From: a virus | Taxonomy: Duplodnaviria; Heunggongvirae; Uroviricota; Caudoviricetes | DNA length: 8,571 bases | IMG/VR virus record: IMGVR_UViG_2571042263_000006 | Reading direction: 5' to 3' (one strand) | Shown: one piece after another, positions 1 through 8,571 of the stretch | How positions within the stretch are numbered: the stretch's first letter is position 1 | Layout of the letters: every line of letters begins with the position of its first letter | Translations under genes and position numbers: made by a program | Notes under the pieces: model-generated | Told to the model about the DNA's origin: nothing | What the model saw: the letters and a program-made list of their open reading frames with translations, nothing else | Database searches by the model: none

Positions 1-38
1 TGTGCCCCCATCGCGCTGGTGAAGAAAACAAGCTCAGA

Positions 39-258
39 TTTTTTGTAAAGAATCTGTCACGCTAAAAGATGTCGAACAAAAAACAACCTTCTTCATCATC
101 TTTTTTACATCAAAATAATTAAAAACAATCACTTATGCACATGATGATGATGACGATAAAATCAAAAAAATGCGCTTCTTTCCGCGCCGACCCGCCCCGT
201 GTTCAGGCCCACCCCACCAGGAGGACCCGCAAAAAAGGCGGCTGGTGCCGCCTTGTTG
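39..258. repeat. Copy A of a ~220-bp diverged direct repeat (conserved non-coding block plus terminator hairpin); partner at 2579-2797
   Basis: By-eye alignment with 2579-2797 shares TTTTTTGTAAA, AACAAAAAACAACC, ACTTAT, an (RTG)4-5 triplet run, ATAAAATCAAAAAAATGCGC, CCGCCCCGTG, CCACCCCACCAGGAG and a 6-bp-stem hairpin. Identity over the core is roughly three quarters (my estimate, not computed). Confidence 0.75.
231..252 (-). terminator. Rho-independent terminator downstream of the protease/capsid gene
   Basis: Plus strand reads AAAAAA-GGCGGC-tggt-GCCGCC; on the minus strand this is a perfect 6-bp GC stem with 4-nt loop followed by TTTTTT, starting 7 nt after the stop codon at 259-261. Confidence 0.8.
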
Positions 259-2148
259 TCATAGTGAATCGGTACCGCCTGATTTGACCATACCGCGATA
301 ATCCAGAGCTGCCACACCTGCATCAATACGGACTTTCCAGGCCACGCCGTCAACGATAAAACCTTCCTGCTGTTCAAGGTAAGGTTCGTCATTGCCATCA
401 AGATAAGCCACCTCGATTGTGTCCGTTCCCTGTGCGGAAAGCATGTACCATTGTTTTTCGCTGATATCATCAAGGCGGGGATCGACGATGATATCAAGTA
501 GCTTGTGATACGGGTTAAAGATCCCGCTGTTTTTATCAGCCCCGAAAGGTGCGGTTGAGTTAATCATCTGCAACGCGCGATCTTCCAGTGCTGCCGGAAC
601 TAAAAGGAATTTAGGCGCAATATTCAGCACTTCGCCATTTTTGTCCTTCTGTGTGCGCATCAGGTGACGTGCTGCACTAAGTCCCGGTGTTGTCAGTCCT
701 GCTTCAATCAGGTTGCTGTGTTTTTTGTCAAACAGCGCTATTCCGTCAGAAAGTTTTACGTTGCCTGTAAGCACCAGATTAACCAGATTTCCCACCGTTC
801 TTGATGCTGCACGGCCCATAGCCATTGGCACCGTTGATAACTGATCAAGGTCATCATTGATTATCGCCTGGCGGGTAATGCTGAAAATATTCCCGTAAGT
901 AGCCAGCGCGATGGGTTCACCGCGATCGCTGGTGGTGATGTATTTATATTCTGCCCCTTCCGGCACTTTGTTTAACGTTGAGAAGCCATTCAGACCAACG
1001 CGGCGGGCTTCCCGGAAGTTTGAAAGGGAACCTTTTTTCGTCCACTGGCGGAATGTTTCGCCGCTGTGCTCCCAGCCTGCAAGCACTGATTTTTCAGCGC
1101 CACCAGCAAGGATATCGGTAAAATCGCTGCTGCTGTGGGTGAATGCCGCGTTTACTATCTGCGAGCGTGTGCCGTAGCTGCCCGTGCTTATACCACGATG
1201 GGTTAATGATGCCTGTGCCATATCGAAAAGGCTCATCATGGCGTAAGGATTACCGCGTTCGGCCCGTTCGTGACCAAGACGCGCATTAAGCCCCTGACGC
1301 ATGGCATCGCCGGTTATATTGCCGTTATCCGTGTACGCGTAGTAAAGATTTGCGGGGGTGGTTTTGTTTGTTGGCGTTGATTCTTTACCCATAGCGAGTA
1401 AAAGGCGTTCGCGTGCATTCTCAACGCTACATTCTGAATCCGCAAGACAACTTATAGCCAGGTCGTTATATCTTCCGTTGAAGGTGCCAAACAATTCACG
1501 GATGCCGTTAAGTCGTTCCTGTTCGCCACTGCCAGTTTTCTGGCTGATCATGCTTTTAATTTTTTCCGGCATATTTGAAAAATCTCCGATTCGTTTTGAT
1601 TCAATTCGGGCCATTGCTGTAATCGCGGGTATAACCTCATCTGCGAAACCGTTAGCCTTACACTCATTGCCATCCATCCAGGTTTCCGCCTCCATCATGG
1701 AGGTGATTTCCTGTTTGCTCCTGCCCGTTCTTCCGGCATAGGTTTCTGCCATCGTGTCGCCCAGCTTGTCCATCAGATCAGCAAAGCGGCGAACGTCGCC
1801 CGACACTCCGGCAGTAACACCACGGGGGGCATGTATCATCATCATCGCGTTTTCAGGCATAACGATGTGATCTCCACACATGGCAATAAACGACGCCATA
1901 GAAGCCGCCATGCCTTCAATGTGTACGATTTTTTTTGCCGGATGATTTTTCAGAGCGTTATAGATAGCCAGCCCTTCAAAGATGTCGCCACCAGGTGAAT
2001 GGATGCGAAGATGGATTTCAGACGCATTACCACACGCGTTGATCTCGTCAGTAAGTGCCGATGCCTTTACACCGTACCCGCCGATCTCGTCATAAATGCG
2101 CACATGTACAACATCTGCCATAGCCTTAATGGAAAACCATGTTTTCAT
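259..2148 (-). CDS. Fused prohead (ClpP/S14-like) serine protease and major capsid protein, 629 aa
   Basis: N-terminal ~190 aa carries ClpP-type motifs: GMAASMAS (candidate nucleophile Ser83, codon ~1900-1902) and MMIHAP (candidate His106). The C-terminal ~330 aa is consistent with a phage major capsid protein, with a linker or scaffold-like segment between. ATG at 2148 has AGGAG 7 nt upstream and overlaps the upstream stop (ATGA). Family assignment from motif recall only. Confidence 0.85.
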   Translation of the reverse strand: MKTWFSIKAMADVVHVRIYDEIGGYGVKASALTDEINACGNASEIHLRIHSPGGDIFEGLAIYNALKNHPAKKIVHIEGMAASMASFIAMCGDHIVMPENAMMMIHAPRGVTAGVSGDVRRFADLMDKLGDTMAETYAGRTGRSKQEITSMMEAETWMDGNECKANGFADEVIPAITAMARIESKRIGDFSNMPEKIKSMISQKTGSGEQERLNGIRELFGTFNGRYNDLAISCLADSECSVENARERLLLAMGKESTPTNKTTPANLYYAYTDNGNITGDAMRQGLNARLGHERAERGNPYAMMSLFDMAQASLTHRGISTGSYGTRSQIVNAAFTHSSSDFTDILAGGAEKSVLAGWEHSGETFRQWTKKGSLSNFREARRVGLNGFSTLNKVPEGAEYKYITTSDRGEPIALATYGNIFSITRQAIINDDLDQLSTVPMAMGRAASRTVGNLVNLVLTGNVKLSDGIALFDKKHSNLIEAGLTTPGLSAARHLMRTQKDKNGEVLNIAPKFLLVPAALEDRALQMINSTAPFGADKNSGIFNPYHKLLDIIVDPRLDDISEKQWYMLSAQGTDTIEVAYLDGNDEPYLEQQEGFIVDGVAWKVRIDAGVAALDYRGMVKSGGTDSL

Positions 2149-2339
2149 AGCCAGGCTCCTAACGTTGCCCTGTACCAGTATTCAACCGCGCTGCGTGTGA
2201 TTTGTCCTTTCGTGGGCACTGGCATACCCGGGTGATTATCTTTGATGAACTGCTGATAGCGTTCGATCTTCTCCATAGTTCCGGCGTCTATGTGTACCGT
2301 GGCACTTTTATCCGGCTTTCTGGTGTTGTTCTCTGGCAT
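2145..2339 (-). CDS. Small hypothetical protein (64 aa) translationally coupled to the capsid gene
   Basis: Start moved from the ORF-track start (2372) to ATG at 2339, which has GGAGG 7 nt upstream. Stop TGA overlaps the capsid ATG. Function unknown; possibly a small DNA-binding or head-assembly accessory protein. Confidence 0.55.
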   Translation of the reverse strand: MPENNTRKPDKSATVHIDAGTMEKIERYQQFIKDNHPGMPVPTKGQITRSAVEYWYRATLGAWL

Positions 2340-2578
2340 AAATCCGCCTCCGTTTTGATTAACGGGCATCATTATTGATCGATAAAAGTAATAGATAAAT
2401 CATTTTCTACCTGAAAATCAGATTATGTTTTTTCTGATTATTCTCAGAGAGGCAAAGCCATTGACGCATTTTTGCTATTGAAGCAATATTAAGACTCGTC
2501 ATCCTGGCGATAAAAACTCCTTTGTCGTGTAAAAGCGCCTCCGGTAACAGCAATCGGGGGCGTTTTTTTTTGCGCCTG

Positions 2579-2797
2579 TTTTTTTGTAAATGTTTTCGGG
2601 AACGTTCCAGTGATGAACAAAAAACAACCTGATTCGACACTAAAAATTTTTATTCTTCAATATATCAATAACTTATAGTGGTGGTGATGGTGCCATAAAA
2701 ATCAAAAAATGCGCCTTTTTCCGCGCCCCTCCGCCCCGTGGACAGGCCACCCCCACCAGGAGTACCTACAAAAAAGCCGGATTGCTCCGGCTTCTGT
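2579..2797. repeat. Copy B of the ~220-bp diverged direct repeat (partner at 39-258)
   Basis: Same ordered conserved blocks as copy A. Its hairpin stem differs in sequence (GCCGGA/TCCGGC versus GGCGGC/GCCGCC) but is still a perfect 6-bp stem, i.e. compensatory changes. Confidence 0.75.
2770..2791 (-). terminator. Rho-independent terminator downstream of the replication module
   Basis: Plus strand AAAAAA-GCCGGA-ttgc-TCCGGC; on the minus strand a 6-bp stem with 4-nt loop followed by TTTTTT, about 75 nt after the stop of the 2867-3043 ORF. Confidence 0.75.
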
Positions 2798-2866
2798 CAC
2801 TCGTTGCTTAAAACGGTATGTTATCCCCGTACGGATCATCGTTACCCGCCTGTTGTTTTGCCCTGT

Positions 2867-3043
2867 TCAGTGCGTCAGTAGCCTGGCCCTGCTGGCCTTT
2901 TTTACCACCTGGTCGGGATGTTCCTTCGCGTATCCTTCCCCCGCGTGGCGGTCTATCGTTCTGATTGCCACCTTTAAGGCGTGCTCTGTCATGTCTAACG
3001 CTTTATATTTTGGCTCTGTTCTGTCTCTGTGTTTTTGAGTCAT
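2867..3043 (-). CDS. Small basic hypothetical protein (58 aa) immediately after the iteron array
   Basis: The ORF-track version (2867-3175) starts at a GTG inside the iterons with no RBS. ATG at 3043 is preceded by GAGGTGG, which is itself the reverse complement of the first iteron. Lys/Arg-rich. Function unknown. Confidence 0.4.
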   Translation of the reverse strand: MTQKHRDRTEPKYKALDMTEHALKVAIRTIDRHAGEGYAKEHPDQVVKKASRARLLTH

Positions 3044-3045
3044 TT

Positions 3046-3247
3046 GCCCACCTCTACCCACTTTTTTCGCCCACTTTTTACGTTTTCCCACTTCGTCCAA
3101 CGTGGGAAATTTGGGATTTATATCATCTTGTTTCATAAGTATTTTTTTAGTGCCCACTTTTTGGGATATATACACGTGGGAAAGTGGGTAATTTTGTTAA
3201 AATTACGTTAAATTGCCCACCTTTCCCACTTTTAATGCCCACTTTTT
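3046..3247. repeat. Iteron array, candidate origin of replication
   Basis: Eight direct copies of (G/T)CCCAC(C/T)TT with core CCCAC at 3047, 3057, 3070, 3087, 3153, 3216, 3225, 3238, plus three inverted copies (GTGGG at 3102, 3176, 3184). Two iteron clusters flank an AT-rich spacer (3110-3150) and sit immediately 3' of the replication gene, overlapping its stop codon. Confidence 0.65.
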
Positions 3248-4655
3248 ACAGTGGTCCTACATCATCACCGTCAATGTAGATCACGTCGTCTTTTTCCAGT
3301 TTGGCTAACCATCGTTTAAGGTGTTTTGTGTCATACCCCAGCTTTTTCATATCGTCACGTAACAGCGGGATCGTGCACTTGTCGCCGTGCTGTGTGCGTG
3401 AACGTATGCACCCCCATAGCGCGGTATGGTTTTCCGTCTTGTTCCCTGCCTCCTCGATGCGCTCCAGTTCAACGGGAGGGCGCGGCTTATCCACCACCAC
3501 CAGCGACGTGATTAACTCCCCGTCAGCGTCGGTAAAAAGCTCCACCACCCGCAAATCATAGGCAGCCTCTTTGAGTTCCTCCGCGTCCTTCATTTTGGTG
3601 CATGAGATAACCAGCGCTTCGCTTCCTGCGTCCTCCCTGCGTATCCGGTATTCAGCATCCAGCGAAGCACGAAATGCACTGGAACCGCGCGCGCCTTTCG
3701 TCTCATCCTTGCCGGAATGGTGAACCACCAGCACCGTGGCCCCTGTGCGTCGTTTCAGTTCGTCACAACCACGGATAAACGCCCCCATATCACGGGAATC
3801 ATTTTCATCATTCCCACCAAAGCAACGCGCCAGCGTATCCAGAATAATCATGCGTACAGGTTTACCCGTTTCCCGCTCCACCTGACGGGCAGCGATAACC
3901 ATTTCATCAATATCAAGCGGGGCAGCCGGAAAGATGGGACGGTTTACCAGATACAGATTTTTCACCTGCTCACCGTGCACAACCTCCCAGGCTTTTACAC
4001 GACGCGGAACGCCGATACCGCCTTCACCAACCACATAGAGAACAGCGCCATGCGCCACCCTGCGGCCTCCCCACTGGCGGCCCGTGGAAACGTGACACGC
4101 CCACGATCCGGCAAGGAATGATTTATAGGAACCGCTCGCCCCGTATATGCTGCAAAGCGACGATGCCGGAATAATCCCCTTTACCACGTAATCAAGCTGT
4201 GTGTCGTATCCGGTAGATCCAACGCTCATCGGTAGCGTGGTTTTTCGCTGGGGGATTTTTTTCATGACCAGGCTTTCCCCGCGTTCCCATGCCTCCCTAA
4301 GCCGTGGAAGCTGGTCGCTCCATTCCTCCAGCAATTCGAAATTTTCAGAAAGTAGCCGCGCCTCCTGGACTCCGGCGATCGCCAGTTTCGTGGCGATGGT
4401 TAACAGCTGCGGCTCTTCAATATTTCCGGCGCGTATCACCGTCGCCCTGTATCGCCCATCATCAACAATCTGGAGGTTATCCAGTTCGCTTAACTGATAA
4501 CGCCCCAGATAAACGGGAGGGACTGGATCTCCTGCTTTTTTTGCCTGTGCAATGATGTAATGCTCTGCGAATGAATGAGCATCAATACCCGCAAAAATAA
4601 TCGCATCGGTGTATTTATCTTTCGGTAATCGTTTTACGTTCGGTGCCAGTTTCAT
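3246..4655 (-). CDS. Replication initiator: RecA-fold P-loop ATPase / helicase (RepA/DnaB-like, AAA_25-type) with N-terminal domain of unknown function and probable C-terminal origin-binding domain, 469 aa
   Basis: Walker A GASGSYKS (res 172-179), Walker B RMIILD (res 268-273), VVHHSGKD (res 310-317). AGGAG 6 nt upstream of ATG at 4655. Start overlaps the upstream stop (ATGA). Iterons lie directly downstream. Confidence 0.85.
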   Translation of the reverse strand: MKLAPNVKRLPKDKYTDAIIFAGIDAHSFAEHYIIAQAKKAGDPVPPVYLGRYQLSELDNLQIVDDGRYRATVIRAGNIEEPQLLTIATKLAIAGVQEARLLSENFELLEEWSDQLPRLREAWERGESLVMKKIPQRKTTLPMSVGSTGYDTQLDYVVKGIIPASSLCSIYGASGSYKSFLAGSWACHVSTGRQWGGRRVAHGAVLYVVGEGGIGVPRRVKAWEVVHGEQVKNLYLVNRPIFPAAPLDIDEMVIAARQVERETGKPVRMIILDTLARCFGGNDENDSRDMGAFIRGCDELKRRTGATVLVVHHSGKDETKGARGSSAFRASLDAEYRIRREDAGSEALVISCTKMKDAEELKEAAYDLRVVELFTDADGELITSLVVVDKPRPPVELERIEEAGNKTENHTALWGCIRSRTQHGDKCTIPLLRDDMKKLGYDTKHLKRWLAKLEKDDVIYIDGDDVGPL

Positions 4656-4951
4656 TTTTTACTCCTGAATCCGTTAATCATGGTTTTCAGCTTCTGGATG
4701 TTTGCCCGTGCCCTGGCGTTGCTGGTGGGCACGTTATGCGGCGCGGTCTGTACCAGAGAAAAATCACGCCGGAACTGATAAACAGGCATCACGCAATCAT
4801 ATTCGTAACCTTCACGGCGGTAGGTTACGCGCCGTTCTTCCACGCCCTTAATCATTACCGTGCCGCCGTACTGGTCGCGGTAAATATCACCGCGCGTAAA
4901 TTTAGGGTGAGTGTTGCCACTGGCAGTTAAGCCAGAATATTTAAGTTTCAT
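4652..4951 (-). CDS. Hypothetical protein, 99 aa (possibly DUF4222-like, with YRD and GYE motifs)
   Basis: GGAGA 9 nt upstream of ATG at 4951; stop overlaps the rep start. Contains IYRDQYG and REGYEYD; the DUF4222 link is from memory and unverified. Confidence 0.65.
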   Translation of the reverse strand: MKLKYSGLTASGNTHPKFTRGDIYRDQYGGTVMIKGVEERRVTYRREGYEYDCVMPVYQFRRDFSLVQTAPHNVPTSNARARANIQKLKTMINGFRSKK

Positions 4952-4956
4952 TATTT

Positions 4957-5190
4957 TTATTCTCCGGTGTGCTGTTCGTTATATCTGTCGTGCAATGTCT
5001 CTATTTCCTGCAACTCATTTATTACAGGCTCAAGAAGCGTTATTAATGATGTAATAATCCGCGCCTTCTTTACATCACACTCATTATCGCCAAATGTTTC
5101 CAGCCACATTTGCAATATTTCGTACATACCTTCAGCGTAAGCAAGGGCACTAAATGCGCGGTCTATTGTTTCTTGGTAAATATCACGCAT
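4957..5190 (-). CDS. Small acidic hypothetical protein, 77 aa
   Basis: ATG at 5190 with GGGGA 5 nt upstream; starts 1 nt after the stop of the upstream ORF. Predicted helical and acidic. Confidence 0.6.
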   Translation of the reverse strand: MRDIYQETIDRAFSALAYAEGMYEILQMWLETFGDNECDVKKARIITSLITLLEPVINELQEIETLHDRYNEQHTGE

Positions 5191-5191
5191 A

Positions 5192-5413
5192 TTAATCCCC
5201 GTCCGTCGTTTTTCTTAAAATAACTTCTGTCACGAAATCAGCATAATCGGCAGCAATACTCAGTACGTCTATTCCAGTTGATTTATATTCTTTCGTGCCA
5301 ATTAAGAAAAAAGATGCTCTAATCAGTTCGGATATTGCAGAAAGCGCATCACTCGCATCATCAGATACGCCGGAAAATTCTTGTTTCAGGGAATTAAAAC
5401 GATCATCACGCAT
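5192..5413 (-). CDS. Small acidic hypothetical protein, 73 aa, starting 2 nt after a G9 tract
   Basis: ATG at 5413; the only upstream purine-rich element is the G9 homopolymer. Its frame differs from the upstream ORF and the two overlap by 28 nt. Confidence 0.5.
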   Translation of the reverse strand: MRDDRFNSLKQEFSGVSDDASDALSAISELIRASFFLIGTKEYKSTGIDVLSIAADYADFVTEVILRKTTDGD

Positions 5414-5628
5414 AACCCCCCCCCATTTTCACAATCAGCAATAAGAATATTTTTAGCGTCATTCAGCGACCGTGTGGCGGTGTATCGGATACATTCCAGG
5501 GCGAACTGTGTCCGGTCTTTCTGTTCTTCTCCCTGCGCAAGCTCTGCCGTGCATTCAATATCAATAAGCGCGTGCATCAGCGTAGTGAGCGCGGCGGCGG
5601 CTGCGTCCGGTGTGGTTTTATTGTGCAT
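5386..5628 (-). CDS. Small hypothetical protein, 80 aa, possibly the 5' part of a frameshift-split gene
   Basis: ATG at 5628 with GGGGGA 5 nt upstream (the ORF-track start at 5670 is not an ATG). Reads through the G9 tract and stops 28 nt into the next ORF. Confidence 0.5.
   Translation of the reverse strand: MHNKTTPDAAAAALTTLMHALIDIECTAELAQGEEQKDRTQFALECIRYTATRSLNDAKNILIADCENGGGLCVMIVLIP
5416..5424 (-). repeat. Homopolymeric tract, nine G on the coding (minus) strand, C9 on plus
   Basis: Plus strand 5416-5424 is CCCCCCCCC. It encodes Gly-Gly-Gly near the C-terminus of ORF 5386-5628 and lies 2 nt upstream of the ATG of ORF 5192-5413. Confidence 0.9.
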
Positions 5629-5818
5629 AGGTTTCCCCCTGGCGAATACGGGCGGCAAATACAGCAACACAACCGGACGGGCAACGGCTACGCGCTTCGC
5701 GTTCCGTCCAGGCGGTTACGTGGATGATTTGACGGTCTGACGCGCCGACGGCAATAAAGCGCCACACAAAGGCCGTTTGTGTGTGTGCTAGTCGTGGAGT
5801 ATGATTTACGGCAACCAT
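5618..5818 (-). CDS. Small hypothetical protein, 66 aa, possible first gene of the early operon
   Basis: ATG at 5818 preceded by GAGGAG 5 nt upstream. GC-rich, Ala/Arg-rich; no recognisable motif. Could instead be a structured 5' leader. Confidence 0.35.
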   Translation of the reverse strand: MVAVNHTPRLAHTQTAFVWRFIAVGASDRQIIHVTAWTEREARSRCPSGCVAVFAARIRQGETYAQ

Positions 5819-6703: not shown

Positions 6704-6913
6704 TTACGCTGCCTTGCCTGAATTAATGCGATCCCGGCTTTTAACCCATTCCATAACCTCGGACAGCAGCCAACCTACAGAACGACCGCCCAGATTACGG
6801 CGTGACGGGAAATTCCCTTTTTTCTCCAGTTCATAGCGTGTAGTGCGACACACTCCAGTTAACTTACGACATTCATCCTCACGGATTACGCGATCTTCAT
6901 TTATTTCACGCAT
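6704..6913 (-). CDS. alpA: AlpA-family phage transcriptional regulator / excisionase-like DNA-binding protein, 69 aa
   Basis: Translation contains the AlpA-family core LTGVCRTTRYELEKKGNFPSRRNLGGRSVGWLLSEVMEWV. Positioned downstream of int on the same strand, as in CP4-57 and P4-like islands. Confidence 0.85.
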   Translation of the reverse strand: MREINEDRVIREDECRKLTGVCRTTRYELEKKGNFPSRRNLGGRSVGWLLSEVMEWVKSRDRINSGKAA

Positions 6914-7332: not shown

Positions 7333-8571
7333 TCAAGGATTTTGGGTGTAAATTCGCGGGGTCATAACAACGATTTTTTCATCATTGTTCTGGAGAAGCT
7401 CGAGACGGTCTACCCATAGATTAAGAGCATCACGTTTTGCATCAAGATAACGGGAGTGGTTATAGACTCGTTGCATCCCCGGCATCTGGTGGGCGGTAAG
7501 CTGCTCGACAATATGCGGATCCACGCCTAAATCGTTCAGCATGGTTGTAAATGTGTGCCGGATGTCATGCAACGACCAGGGGGCTTGATTAATGCGTCTG
7601 TGTGCCGTTCTTCCGTACTCTGCTACGGATGATTGCCCTTTCAGTTCTCCAAGCAATAAGCCCGTGTGCCTGTTCTTCTCCACCAGCTTCATGACAAACG
7701 GCAAGATCGCTTCCGGTATTGGCCTGAATATTGCTACCTTCGTTTTGCTGTGTTCTTTCGGCACAGTCCAGAGCATTTCTTTAAAATCCCATTCCTGAAC
7801 CTCGGAGCGTCTTAGCTCAGTGGTACGGCATCCAAAGACAATCAGAAGGCGAATTAAGGCGCTGTAGTACGGCGGGAAAATTTTTTCATCCAGTGCGCGG
7901 AGTAGCTCGCCAAGCTCCTTGTTTGTTAGCACTCGCTCGCTTATTTCTGCTTTTTTTCCCACATCACCTACGACCATATCATCAAGAACGTTACTGACGG
8001 CGTAGCGACGTTTACGGCAGTACTTAAGCGCCTGCTTGCATACCTGCAACAAAAAGCCGGCTGATACCGGATTACGCTTAGCAAGCTGGTCAAAACAGGC
8101 CAGCCAGTGGCGTAGCTCGCATTTATCCAGCGGCATAGCACCAATCTGGCTGATTATGTGCTTATTGATCCGGCTTTTCAGTGATTCGTGGTCAGTGCGC
8201 TTTTCCTTCGCGTATGACTCAAGCCAGTAAGTGATCGCGTCCTTAACCGTTACAGGTGCTAACGCTTCCTGCACTGTGTGATTAAGCTCATGGCGTGGAT
8301 TTTTCCCCTCTGCCAGCCAGGCGCGACACTGTGCCGCTTTTTCTCTGGCTGCTTTCAGGCTCAGATCGGGATAGTTGCCCAGTCTCAGGCGTTCCGGTGA
8401 TACCTGCCTGCCAGTTCCGGCCCTGTAAGTGAAATACCAGGTTAACAGGCCATTGGTTGAATGCCTTACGCTAAGGTTGCCACCATCATTAAAAAAGGTG
8501 TTTTTTGTGGTTGGTGATCCGCTTAATTTTCGTAAAAGAGTGTCGCTAAGTCTATGAATTGCCCTGCTCAT
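7333..8571 (-). CDS. int: P4-type tyrosine integrase (site-specific recombinase), 412 aa
   Basis: N-terminal arm-binding-type region (LSDTLLRKL...FNDGGNLSVRHSTNGLLTWYFTYR) and C-terminal catalytic motifs HDIRHTF (H-x-x-R) and VYNHSRY (Tyr nucleophile region). The first ATG is the last three bases of the window, so the true start could lie just outside. Confidence 0.9.
   Translation of the reverse strand: MSRAIHRLSDTLLRKLSGSPTTKNTFFNDGGNLSVRHSTNGLLTWYFTYRAGTGRQVSPERLRLGNYPDLSLKAAREKAAQCRAWLAEGKNPRHELNHTVQEALAPVTVKDAITYWLESYAKEKRTDHESLKSRINKHIISQIGAMPLDKCELRHWLACFDQLAKRNPVSAGFLLQVCKQALKYCRKRRYAVSNVLDDMVVGDVGKKAEISERVLTNKELGELLRALDEKIFPPYYSALIRLLIVFGCRTTELRRSEVQEWDFKEMLWTVPKEHSKTKVAIFRPIPEAILPFVMKLVEKNRHTGLLLGELKGQSSVAEYGRTAHRRINQAPWSLHDIRHTFTTMLNDLGVDPHIVEQLTAHQMPGMQRVYNHSRYLDAKRDALNLWVDRLELLQNNDEKIVVMTPRIYTQNP

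What the first reader, a model, noticed from the sequence alone, without database searches (positions are those of the whole stretch)
5416..5424. G9 homopolymer at the junction of two out-of-frame small ORFs
A run of nine G on the coding strand sits where ORF 5386-5628 and ORF 5192-5413 overlap in different frames. A tract of ten G (or an equivalent -1 ribosomal or transcriptional slip) would fuse them into one protein of roughly 145 aa reading ...NGGGVMRDDRF...; eight G would truncate to ...NGGGYA. This could be a sequencing homopolymer error splitting one gene, a phase-variable switch, or programmed slippage.
Basis: seen in the sequence. Interest (0 to 1): 0.5.

Follow-up and report, generated by a model that had tools for sequence, protein, structure and literature searches.

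The report
Length-variable poly-G between two satellite genes
The nine-G run is real and inherited: it sits at the join of two small, tightly coupled genes of an E. coli phage-satellite island, and its length (6 to 10 G in related islands) decides whether they are read as two proteins or one fused protein, with no sign of programmed recoding.

Summary
There is a G9 run on the coding (minus) strand at 5416-5424. It forms the last Gly codons of orfA (5386-5628) and ends 2 nt before the ATG of orfB (5192-5413).

It is not a sequencing error. The same G9 allele occurs in 20 complete genomes that are identical over 551 nt, and its orfA product occurs on 233 contigs.

Homologous E. coli and Shigella islands with identical flanks carry G6, G7, G8, G9 or G10.
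- G8 gives the 8-nt stop/start overlap ATGCGTGA (orfA ends ...YA*), which also joins other genes in related islands.
- G6 and G9 give orfA a 9-residue out-of-frame tail (LCVMIVLIP).
- G7 and G10 fuse the two genes.

Diverged relatives encode orfA and orfB as separate proteins, and orfB always starts at this Met, so two genes is the ancestral state.

Best reading: the G-run is orfB's Shine-Dalgarno-like sequence and also a replication-slippage hot spot. Length changes are tolerated because orfB keeps its own start. The length is stable within clones, so rapid phase variation is not shown. There is no support for ribosomal or transcriptional slippage. The function of both proteins is unknown.

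The parts
5416..5424 (-). G9 homopolymer. It encodes the Gly-Gly-Gly codons near the 3' end of orfA and ends 2 nt before the orfB ATG. It is the inferred Shine-Dalgarno-like element of orfB and the site of length polymorphism (G6-G10 in homologues).
   Evidence: sequence and chance expectation; length variants with identical flanks.
5386..5628 (-). orfA, 80 aa in this G9 allele (MHNKTT...CENGGGLCVMIVLIP*). Hypothetical protein, annotated as WP_022645447.1 in strain MS6198.
   Evidence: PHROG phrog_5146 and the first half of phrog_2512. No Pfam or NCBIfam hit.
5386..5415 (-). The 9-codon out-of-frame tail of orfA (LCVMIVLIP) plus its stop codon. It is present only when the tract length is a multiple of three (G6, G9). 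Positions 5386-5413 are the 28-nt overlap with the 5' end of orfB.
   Evidence: in-silico length series; the G6 allele in L013 has the same tail.
5411..5413 (-). ATG start codon of orfB. It is the N-terminal Met of free-standing orfB homologues, including diverged ones.
   Evidence: orfB-only relatives start at profile position 72, which is this Met; the same ATG follows a different upstream gene in L009 and L018.
5192..5413 (-). orfB, 73 aa (MRDDRFNSLKQEF...RKTTDGD*). Hypothetical protein, annotated as WP_022645448.1.
   Evidence: PHROG phrog_24341 and the second half of phrog_2512. This exact protein is on 280 contigs.
5635..5639 (-). G5 run 6 nt upstream of the orfA ATG. It shows that G-runs occupy the Shine-Dalgarno position elsewhere in this operon.
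5618..5818 (-). Icd-like gene upstream. Its stop overlaps the orfA start by 11 nt (context: one tightly coupled operon).
4957..5190 (-). orfC, the next small gene. It starts 1 nt after the orfB stop, behind a GGGGA motif (context: the same coupled operon, which continues into DUF4222 and the RepA-type helicase gene).

Best explanation
orfA and orfB are two distinct, translationally coupled small genes in the early operon of an integrated E. coli phage-satellite island. The order on the minus strand is integrase, alpA, icd-like, orfA, orfB, orfC, DUF4222, RepA-type helicase, then a protease-capsid fusion. The G-run has two roles. It supplies the last Gly codons of orfA, and (inferred) it is the G-rich Shine-Dalgarno-like sequence for orfB, whose ATG follows 2 nt later. 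Because it is a long G/C homopolymer, replication slippage changes its length far more often than the surrounding DNA mutates. With 8 G, orfA ends ...GGT TAT GCG TGA, so its stop overlaps orfB's ATG in the 8-nt motif ATGCGTGA. This is the probable ancestral design. With 9 G (this window) or 6 G, orfA reads on for nine out-of-frame codons. With 7 or 10 G the two ORFs fuse. All three frames persist in nature, probably because orfB keeps its own ribosome-binding site and start in every state and only the C-terminus of orfA changes. In this window the heritable G9 allele should yield two proteins: orfA with a hydrophobic LCVMIVLIP tail, and normal orfB. Shown here: the tract, the frames, the length polymorphism, its recurrence, and the two-gene state in diverged relatives. 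Inferred: the Shine-Dalgarno role, translational coupling, and tolerance (near-neutrality) of the length changes. Unknown: what the two proteins do.
For: (1) Homologous islands with identical junction flanks carry G6, G7, G8, G9 and G10.
(2) In complete E. coli genomes I estimate about 357 records with G7, 179 with G8, 167 with G9 and 20 with G10. In 52 metagenome contigs the counts are G7 10, G8 27, G9 12, G10 1 and 2 interrupted tracts.
(3) On the exact orfA background of this window, the G9 form is on 233 contigs, G8 on 49, the G10 fusion on 8 and the G7 fusion on 3. Exact orfB is on 280 contigs.
(4) Change is recurrent. Eight protein backgrounds carry both G7 and G10 fusions. Four sets of sequences with identical 420-nt flanks differ only in tract length.
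(5) G9 is heritable and stable. Twenty complete genomes are 100% identical over 551 nt, including 6 assemblies of strain 042 and its serial Ec-042 derivatives and 8 clonal dog/cat isolates. The O26:H11 lineage also carries G9.
(6) Two genes is the ancestral state. In a profile search of 1.84 billion representatives, relatives match either positions 1 to about 70 (orfA alone) or positions 72 onward starting at their residue 1 (orfB alone). Diverged orfA homologues end ...GHA*...HHA* or ...DHA* without poly-Gly.
(7) In L009 a 121-aa gene sits between orfA and orfB, and orfB keeps the same ATG behind another G-run, as it also does in L018.
(8) The G8 state reproduces the ATGCGTGA overlap seen at other junctions in related islands. 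G-runs also precede other starts of this operon.
(9) Interrupted tracts (GGGGGTGG in L004, G8TGG in a metagenome contig) keep the split G8 frame.
(10) No promoter-like site on the coding strand separates the two ORFs, consistent with one transcript.
Against: Fused forms are common and diverse. There are more than 100 clusters at 90% identity, and G7 is apparently fixed in O157:H7. Fusions arise by three routes: G7, G10, and G8 with loss of one T. This could mean that the fusion is selected rather than merely tolerated. PGAP calls the same G9 junction a 'frameshifted' single gene in one O111 genome. The Shine-Dalgarno role and the coupling are inferred from sequence only. The tract is as conserved as its roughly 80-nt surroundings, so selection for or against the run itself cannot be separated out. 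The AlphaFold2 model of the fusion is of low confidence (mean pLDDT 53.6), so it says nothing about whether A and B interact.
Confidence: 0.68

Rival explanations
1. It is a true phase-variable (contingency) switch. Reversible slippage in the G-run is used by the satellite or its host to toggle a population between three states: A plus B, A-with-tail plus B, and the A-B fusion. These states have different effects on the satellite life cycle, helper interference or the host.
For: Tract lengths 6-10 occur on identical backgrounds, and recurrently. All three reading-frame states are common. A G9 run is far longer than chance predicts. Fusions arise by several independent routes.
Against: Length is clonally stable at consensus level. 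Fourteen of 14 related assemblies have G9, including serial Ec-042 T0/T5/T20 isolates. Records sampled from the O26-type island are nearly all G9, and every sampled O157:H7-labelled record has G7. The metagenome length distribution is a symmetric spread around G8, as expected from simple slippage. orfB keeps its own start in every state, so no on/off switch results. No phenotype is known.
Confidence: 0.12
2. It is one gene broken by a frameshift. The functional product is the roughly 145-aa fusion, and the G8 and G9 alleles, including this window, are pseudogenised or decaying copies (the view PGAP takes in one genome).
For: PGAP marks the G9 junction of O111 strain 02-3334 as 'frameshifted'. 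PHROGs holds a 154-position fused family, phrog_2512. There are many fused clusters, and the fusion appears fixed in O157:H7.
Against: Diverged relatives are separate orfA-only and orfB-only proteins, and orfB starts at this Met. In L009 a different gene lies between orfA and orfB. G8 recreates the ATGCGTGA stop/start overlap seen at other junctions in related islands. Split forms make up 79% of metagenome contigs. On this island's background, split forms outnumber fused ones by about 25 to 1. Both halves remain intact ORFs in all alleles.
Confidence: 0.1
3. It is programmed recoding. From the G9 allele a fraction of ribosomes slip -1 on G_GGG_GGG, or RNA polymerase adds a G, producing the A-B fusion alongside A and B, as with lambda G/GT, dnaX or IS911 OrfAB.
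For: G_GGG_GGG in the orfA frame formally fits the X_XXY_YYZ pattern, and a -1 shift gives exactly ...NGGGVMRDD.... A modest hairpin can form from the 3' part of the run through the orfB start.
Against: The frame relation is not conserved. Homologues with G7, G8, G9 and G10 would need shifts of 0, +1, -1 and 0. The local fold is no better than shuffles (z = 0.12; 77 of 500 shuffles fold as well) and it starts inside the run rather than 5-9 nt downstream. In E. coli, all transcription insertions found in homopolymers were in A/T runs, and G/C runs were described as 'not prone to slippage' (PMC5574713). The related motif G_GG.G_GG.U gave the lowest -1 frameshifting measured, 0.018% (PMC4066793). 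The value for G_GG.G_GG.G was not retrieved.
Confidence: 0.06
4. The G9 in this window is an assembly or sequencing homopolymer error, and the real sequence is G8 or G10.
For: Homopolymer miscounts are common in long-read assemblies (general knowledge). Single assemblies with G10 or G7 on this background (L010, L011) could themselves be such errors.
Against: Twenty independent complete genomes are identical through the tract. The G9-specific orfA protein is on 233 contigs from several sources. Twelve of 52 metagenome contigs have G9. Lineage-consistent lengths (G9 in sampled O26-type islands, G7 in sampled O157:H7) are not what random error produces.
Confidence: 0.03

Closest known systems
Homopolymeric-tract contingency loci (poly-G or poly-C phase variation, e.g. 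Neisseria pilC/opc, Campylobacter poly-G genes, Haemophilus simple-sequence repeats; named from general knowledge)
   Same: A long G/C run lies inside a coding region. Its length differs between close relatives, and each change shifts the reading frame.
   Different: Here no frame switches a gene off. orfB keeps its own start, and only the orfA C-terminus or the A-B linkage changes. The host is mismatch-repair-proficient E. coli. Lengths are stable within clones. No rapid reversible switching or phenotype has been shown.
Translationally coupled overlapping genes with the downstream Shine-Dalgarno sequence inside the upstream ORF (ATGA or longer stop/start overlaps in phage and operon genes; general knowledge)
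   Same: The G8 allele has the ATGCGTGA overlap also seen at other junctions in related islands. A G-rich run sits 2 nt before the ATG. No promoter-like site lies between the genes on the coding strand.
   Different: In this window the overlap is 28 nt because of one extra G. The ribosome-binding element is itself a mutable homopolymer.
Programmed -1 frameshift or transcriptional slippage that makes a fused second product (lambda G/GT, dnaX, IS911 OrfAB; Shigella mxiE T9, Thermus dnaX A9; PMC5009743 reviews the field)
   Same: There are two overlapping ORFs, a slippery-looking run, and a fusion product that makes biological sense.
   Different: The frame offset is not conserved among homologues. 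There is no significant downstream stimulator. The run is G rather than A/T. The fusion is produced by DNA alleles (G7, G10) rather than by demonstrated recoding.
Gene fusion and fission ('Rosetta stone') pairs
   Same: The same two proteins occur as separate chains in some genomes and as a single chain in others. By the usual logic this suggests that they act together.
   Different: The fused and split states are interconverted by single-base indels within one species, not fixed over long evolutionary distances. The interaction is untested, and the AlphaFold2 model is uninformative.
Capsid-encoding phage satellites of E. coli (cf-PICI such as EcCIEDL933; 10.1101/2025.02.11.637232, PMC10085698)
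   Same: The gene context matches: tyrosine integrase, AlpA, a replication helicase and a capsid gene in a chromosomal island next to cspD.
   Different: Only part of the island lies in the window. Its capsid gene is a ClpP-protease/capsid fusion, whereas the EcCIEDL933 capsid protein described in the paper is a separate gene product. No paper found mentions orfA, orfB or the tract.

Membership tests
Homopolymeric-tract phase-variable (contingency) locus | A long mononucleotide run within or just 5' of a coding sequence | tested here: met
   G9 at 5416-5424 lies inside orfA, 2 nt before the orfB ATG.
Homopolymeric-tract phase-variable (contingency) locus | Tract length is polymorphic among closely related strains or elements | tested here: met
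   G6-G10 occur with identical flanks. On the same protein background, G9, G8, G10 and G7 forms are on 233, 49, 8 and 3 contigs.
Homopolymeric-tract phase-variable (contingency) locus | A length change alters the reading frame or expression of a gene | tested here: met
   There are three frame outcomes...YA*, the ...LCVMIVLIP* tail, and the A-B fusion. No gene is switched off, because orfB keeps its own start.
Homopolymeric-tract phase-variable (contingency) locus | High-frequency, reversible switching within a clonal population | tested here: inconclusive
   Consensus assemblies of clonal and serial isolates are all G9 (14 of 14), which argues against very high rates. Minority variants within cultures cannot be seen with these tools.
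Homopolymeric-tract phase-variable (contingency) locus | A phenotype that differs between tract states | not testable with these tools
   The function of orfA and orfB is unknown. There is no Pfam or NCBIfam hit, and the PHROG families are of unknown function.
Programmed -1 ribosomal frameshift site | A slippery heptamer X_XXY_YYZ in the upstream frame | tested here: met
   G_GGG_GGG is in the orfA frame. The related G_GG.G_GG.U is the poorest motif measured in E. coli (PMC4066793).
Programmed -1 ribosomal frameshift site | A stimulatory structure 5-9 nt downstream, or a correctly spaced upstream Shine-Dalgarno sequence | tested here: not met
   The local fold is not better than shuffles (z = 0.12; 77 of 500 shuffles). 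The only hairpin begins within the run itself.
Programmed -1 ribosomal frameshift site | Conservation of the site and of the frame offset among homologues | tested here: not met
   Homologues have G6-G10 and therefore all three frame relations. Diverged homologues have no run at all.
Transcriptional-slippage site | A run of about 9 or more A or T in the template | tested here: not met
   The run is G/C. In the E. coli transcriptome data, G/C runs showed no slippage insertions (PMC5574713).
Translationally coupled overlapping gene pair | Stop/start overlap or close abutment on one transcript | tested here: met
   The overlap is 28 nt here and 8 nt (ATGCGTGA) in G8 alleles. No promoter-like site lies between the ORFs on the coding strand. 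Neighbouring junctions in the window overlap by 11 or 4 nt or abut within 1 to 5 nt.
Translationally coupled overlapping gene pair | A Shine-Dalgarno-like element for the downstream gene inside the upstream ORF | tested here: met
   The G-run lies 2 nt before the ATG. G5 and G6 runs precede other starts in the island. A different upstream gene also ends in a G6 or G9 run before the same ATG. Function as a ribosome-binding site is inferred, not measured.
Translationally coupled overlapping gene pair | Downstream translation depends on upstream translation | not testable with these tools
   This needs reporter fusions with and without a premature stop in orfA.

The most novel reading that the evidence does not exclude
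The poly-G is a genuine contingency locus of a phage satellite. Slippage would diversify a clonal E. coli population into cells making A plus B, A-with-hydrophobic-tail plus B, or a single-chain A-B protein. These states would differ in how the island responds to or interferes with helper phages. That would be the first homopolymer-based phase variation described in a satellite's early operon, and it would occur in a mismatch-repair-proficient host.
Probability: 0.1. Interest if true: 0.6.

Novelty: new member of a known kind. Interest (0 to 1): 0.3.

Why it matters
This is a clean natural example of a single-base-mutable junction that converts two coupled genes into one fused gene and back. 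It occurs hundreds of times across E. coli, with roughly half of the junction-bearing complete genomes in the fused state.

In practice it explains inconsistent annotation: the same sequence is called two CDS in some RefSeq genomes and a 'frameshifted' pseudogene in another. It also warns against treating either state as an error.

Biologically, the free interconversion of split and fused forms suggests that orfA and orfB act together. That gives a handle on two uncharacterised early proteins of a widespread family of E. coli phage satellites.

If the tract proved to switch at useful rates, it would add phase variation to the repertoire of satellite-helper conflict. Nothing here shows that.

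Tried and rejected
- Pfam, NCBIfam and PHROGs scans of orfA, orfB, orfC and the fusion gave no functional assignment. There were no Pfam or NCBIfam hits for orfA, orfB, orfC or the fusion, and only PHROG families of unknown function.
- An AlphaFold2 model of the natural 145-aa fusion, built with a 105-sequence alignment, had mean pLDDT 53.6 and pTM 0.45, with helices only. This is too weak to judge A-B packing, so no fold search was run.
- BLASTP of orfA against orfB and of orfB against orfC found no similarity, so the array is not detectably made of paralogues.
- RNA folding around the tract showed no structure better than shuffles.
- Rfam and the promoter/terminator scans found nothing relevant at the junction.
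- A scan of GTDB species representatives for the conserved orfB start found only Shigella flexneri and Escherichia ruysiae, plus four hits I take to be chance matches in unrelated uncultured genomes. The pair is therefore essentially confined to Escherichia/Shigella at that level of conservation.
- tblastn of the fusion against 50,697 phage genomes found no match.
- Literature searches found no paper on this tract or these genes.
- I considered using T-run or other G-run controls to gauge assembly error. I dropped this because lineage-consistent lengths and the exact-protein contig counts already exclude random error.
- The per-length counts are estimates. They subtract the 239 records that match only the orfB half from the >=99% identity band. 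Genomes with two islands are counted under two lengths.

Full report
**What is there**

The + strand carries C9 at 5416-5424, which is G9 on the minus strand where all local genes lie. It is the only G/C run of 9 or more in the window. Dinucleotide-preserving shuffles give a mean of 0.02 such runs, and 3 of 200 shuffles have any.

- orfA (5386-5628, 80 aa) ends ...GAA AAT GGG GGG GGG TTA TGC GTG ATG ATC GTT TTA ATT CCC TGA.
- orfB (5192-5413, 73 aa) starts at the ATG 2 nt after the run, in another frame.
- The two ORFs overlap by 28 nt.
- Building the length series in silico gives ...NGGGYA* for G8...NGGGLCVMIVLIP* for G9 (and the same tail after NGG for G6), and a 144- or 145-aa fusion for G7 or G10.

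The only correction is that the run lies just 5' of the overlap, not inside it.

**Context**

The window is the reverse complement of E. coli MS6198 chromosome NZ_CP015834.1, next to cspD/yljB. The minus strand encodes, in order:

- a tyrosine integrase (7333-8571);
- AlpA (6704-6913);
- an Icd-like protein (5618-5818);
- orfA, orfB and orfC (4957-5190);
- a DUF4222 protein (4652-4951);
- a RepA/AAA_25 helicase (3246-4655);
- a ClpP-protease/major-capsid fusion (259-2148).

This is an integrated phage satellite that encodes its own capsid. I infer a cf-PICI-like element, the published prototype being EcCIEDL933 (10.1101/2025.02.11.637232).

The small genes are packed stop-on-start. Their junctions overlap by 11, 28 or 4 nt, or are separated by gaps of 1 and 5 nt. 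Several starts are preceded by G-runs (G5 before orfA, GGGGA before orfC, G6 downstream of alpA). No promoter-like site on the coding strand separates orfA from orfB. Homologous DNA is present in 1158 of 5426 complete E. coli genomes.

**Tract length in homologues**

Islands with identical junction flanks (GCTGATTGTGAAAAT-Gn-TTATGCGTGATGATCG) show every length from 6 to 10:

| Length | Strain (locus) | Annotated as |
|---|---|---|
| G6 | UTAK-1 (L013) | split |
| G7 | O157:H7 MB9-1 (L006); O22:H8 154 (L011) | one CDS of 154 or 144 aa |
| G8 | Nissle (L003), PE164 (L007), UTME-14 (L008), Shigella flexneri (L017) | two CDS, orfA ends ...YA* |
| G9 | MS6198 (L001), O26 RM8426 (L002), O111 02-3334 (L005) | two CDS, or 'frameshifted' in L005 |
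| G10 | N4220121 (L010), SD134209 (L012) | one CDS |

L010 is otherwise identical to the window over 551 nt.

I ran junction queries of 56-59 nt against the complete genomes. They hit 889 records. Of these, 650 hold the orfA-Gn-orfB junction and 239 hold only the orfB half. Subtracting those 239 from the >=99% identity band gives roughly 357 records with G7, 179 with G8, 167 with G9 and 20 with G10. These are estimates. Genomes with two islands count twice, and the evenly spaced result rows bracket the same ranges.

An independent scan of metagenome contigs gave G7 10, G8 27, G9 12 and G10 1, plus two interrupted tracts (G8TGG and G10AG).

**Real allele or error?**

The G9 allele is real and heritable.

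- Twenty complete genomes are 100% identical to the window over 551 nt including the run. They include 6 assemblies of strain 042 and its serial derivatives (Ec-042 T0, T5 and T20) and 8 clonal dog/cat isolates.
- O26:H11 strain 11368 carries the same G9-form orfA and orfB proteins as strain RM8426, whose G9 tract I read directly, while a related strain (06_3235) has G8.
- Exact-sequence look-up on this island's protein background finds the G9 form of orfA on 233 contigs, the G8 form on 49, the G10 fusion on 8 and the G7 fusion on 3. G6 and G11 forms are absent. Exact orfB is on 280 contigs.

Random miscounting would not produce lineage-consistent lengths. The tract nevertheless changes much faster than its surroundings. 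Four groups of sequences with identical 420-nt flanks differ only in tract length (some members were picked because they differed). Eight protein backgrounds occur in both G7-fused and G10-fused versions, and one of them also in a third version.

**One gene or two?**

Several lines of evidence say two.

1. A profile of 105 fused proteins, searched against 1.84 billion representatives, found only 52 relatives. The intact diverged ones are either orfA-only (about 72-84 aa, matching profile positions 1 to about 70) or orfB-only (about 68-77 aa). Most of the orfB-only ones start at their residue 1 on profile position 72, the Met of MRDD. Only two representatives are full fusions.
2. Diverged orfA proteins end ...EVGHA*...EVHHA* or ...GVDHA*, without poly-Gly.
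3. In strain EC8 (L009) a 121-aa gene sits between orfA and orfB. In both L009 and E. ruysiae (L018), orfB keeps the same ATG behind another G-run, G6 or G9.
4. With G8 the junction reads GGT TAT GCG TGA. This is the same ATGCGTGA stop/start overlap that joins other genes in related islands (protein ends ...KHA* and ...SHA*).
5. Interrupted tracts (GGGGGTGG in L004, G8TGG in a metagenome contig) preserve the split G8 frame.

G8 is also the modal length in the less clonally biased metagenome sample, with G7 and G9 about equally frequent on either side. The simplest history is an ancestral G8 with slippage of plus or minus one base. The window carries the +1 variant.

**The fusions deserve respect**

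More than 100 clusters of fused proteins at 90% identity exist, all from E. coli.

- 61 clusters read NGGVM (G7).
- 44 read NGGGVM (G10).
- About 10 read NGGGM, which I read as G8 minus one T.
- One reads NGGGIM.

Every O157:H7-labelled record I sampled carries G7. PHROGs holds both a fused family (phrog_2512, 154 positions) and split families (phrog_5146 and phrog_24341). PGAP annotates one G9 junction as a frameshifted single gene.

Fusion is therefore at least well tolerated. Because orfB's ATG and G-run persist inside the fusion, free orfB may still be made there (inference). By the Rosetta-stone argument, the easy interconversion suggests that A and B work together. I could not test this. 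The AlphaFold2 model is helical but of low confidence (pLDDT 53.6). BLASTP shows no paralogy among A, B and C. No library assigns a function.

**Programmed recoding**

- G_GGG_GGG formally fits a -1 slippery heptamer, and a -1 shift on the G9 allele would produce the fusion.
- The frame offset differs among homologues, so the site is not conserved in the sense required.
- The region does not fold better than shuffles (z = 0.12; 77 of 500 shuffles).
- The only hairpin (about -12 kcal/mol) starts inside the run and covers the orfB start. That would suit translational coupling better than frameshift stimulation.
- In a systematic E. coli assay, G_GG.G_GG.U gave the lowest -1 frameshifting measured, 0.018% (PMC4066793). 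I did not retrieve the value for G_GG.G_GG.G.
- In E. coli transcriptome data, all slippage insertions in homopolymers were in A/T runs, and G/C runs were described as 'not prone to slippage' (PMC5574713).

**Phase variation**

The DNA-level prerequisites are met: a long run, polymorphism on identical backgrounds, and frame consequences. The defining property, rapid reversible switching within a clone with a phenotype, is not shown. Fourteen of 14 clonal or serial assemblies keep G9, and related strains of the sampled lineages (O26-type islands, O157:H7) largely share one length. No state silences a gene. From general knowledge, not tested here, G/C runs of 8-9 in mismatch-repair-proficient E. 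coli are indel hot spots, but at rates orders of magnitude below classic contingency loci.

**Verdict**

The finding is a real, heritable, length-polymorphic poly-G at a translationally coupled junction between two genes of unknown function in a widespread E. coli satellite island. In this window it is the G9 allele: two proteins, with orfA carrying a nine-residue out-of-frame tail.

I put 0.68 on 'ribosome-binding G-run that is a tolerated slippage hot spot'. The rivals stand at about 0.12 for adaptive phase variation, 0.10 for a broken single gene, 0.06 for programmed recoding and 0.03 for sequencing error.

It is a new example of a known kind of feature and of modest interest. It is useful for annotation and as a hint that orfA and orfB are partners.

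Noticed in passing
window 74-254 and 2615-2793: A direct repeat of about 180 nt (about 79% identity, spacing about 2540 nt). Each copy has a terminator-like hairpin (AAAAAGCCGG...CCGGCTT). The two copies bracket the orf75 plus ClpP-protease/capsid module, so this may be a module boundary or a repeated regulatory element.
   Followed up: no
window 3057-3249: Iteron-like repeats (CCCACTTTTT..., three copies spaced 83-85 nt) immediately 3' of the RepA-type helicase gene. This is a candidate replication origin of the satellite (D5/D6).
   Followed up: no
L003 1464-1471 (Nissle-type island; not present in the window): An A8 run lies near the end of an extra upstream gene, orfZ. Proteins of 217-224 aa fuse orfZ to orfA and orfB with the junction ...EKNAEGYMCNK. 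I infer that this is the A7 version of the run; the DNA of a fused allele was not checked. One such protein, P0056, is on 52 contigs. It would be a second homopolymer at a coupled junction producing fusions.
   Followed up: partly
L009 2060-2065; minus strand of L018, just 5' of the orfB ATG at 5428-5426: Where a 121-aa gene replaces orfA as the upstream neighbour, orfB is again preceded by a G-run (G6 in E. coli EC8, G9 in E. ruysiae), followed by TAAAC and the ATG. A G-run before the orfB start is therefore a constant feature regardless of the upstream gene.
   Followed up: partly
L005 1496-1941 compared with L002 1573-2009 and L001 6073-6509: RefSeq/PGAP annotation is inconsistent. The same G9 junction is annotated as two CDS in O26 and MS6198 but as one 'frameshifted' pseudogene in O111:H8 strain 02-3334.
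   Followed up: yes
window ~5330-5415 (first ~80 nt of orfB) and the equivalent regions of L001-L017: The junction and the first ~80 nt of orfB are about 100% identical among islands that are only 75-90% identical on either side. orfA and orfB sequence variants occur in shuffled combinations (A1+B1, A2+B2, A1+B2), suggesting recombination at this conserved block.
   Followed up: partly
window 2563-2571 (T9) and 2531-2573: A T9 run lies in a stretch between the capsid module and the helicase gene that has no convincing ORF. RefSeq marks pseudogene fragments in the adjacent stretch at about 2808-3136, including an SSB remnant. There is also a weak, sub-threshold Rfam hit to ctRNA_p42d (24.3 bits against a gathering score of 50).
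   Followed up: no
window 259-2148: A single 629-aa ORF fuses a ClpP-like prohead protease domain to an HK97-type major capsid domain (Pfam CLP_protease plus Phage_capsid_4). The island therefore makes its own capsid protein.
   Followed up: no
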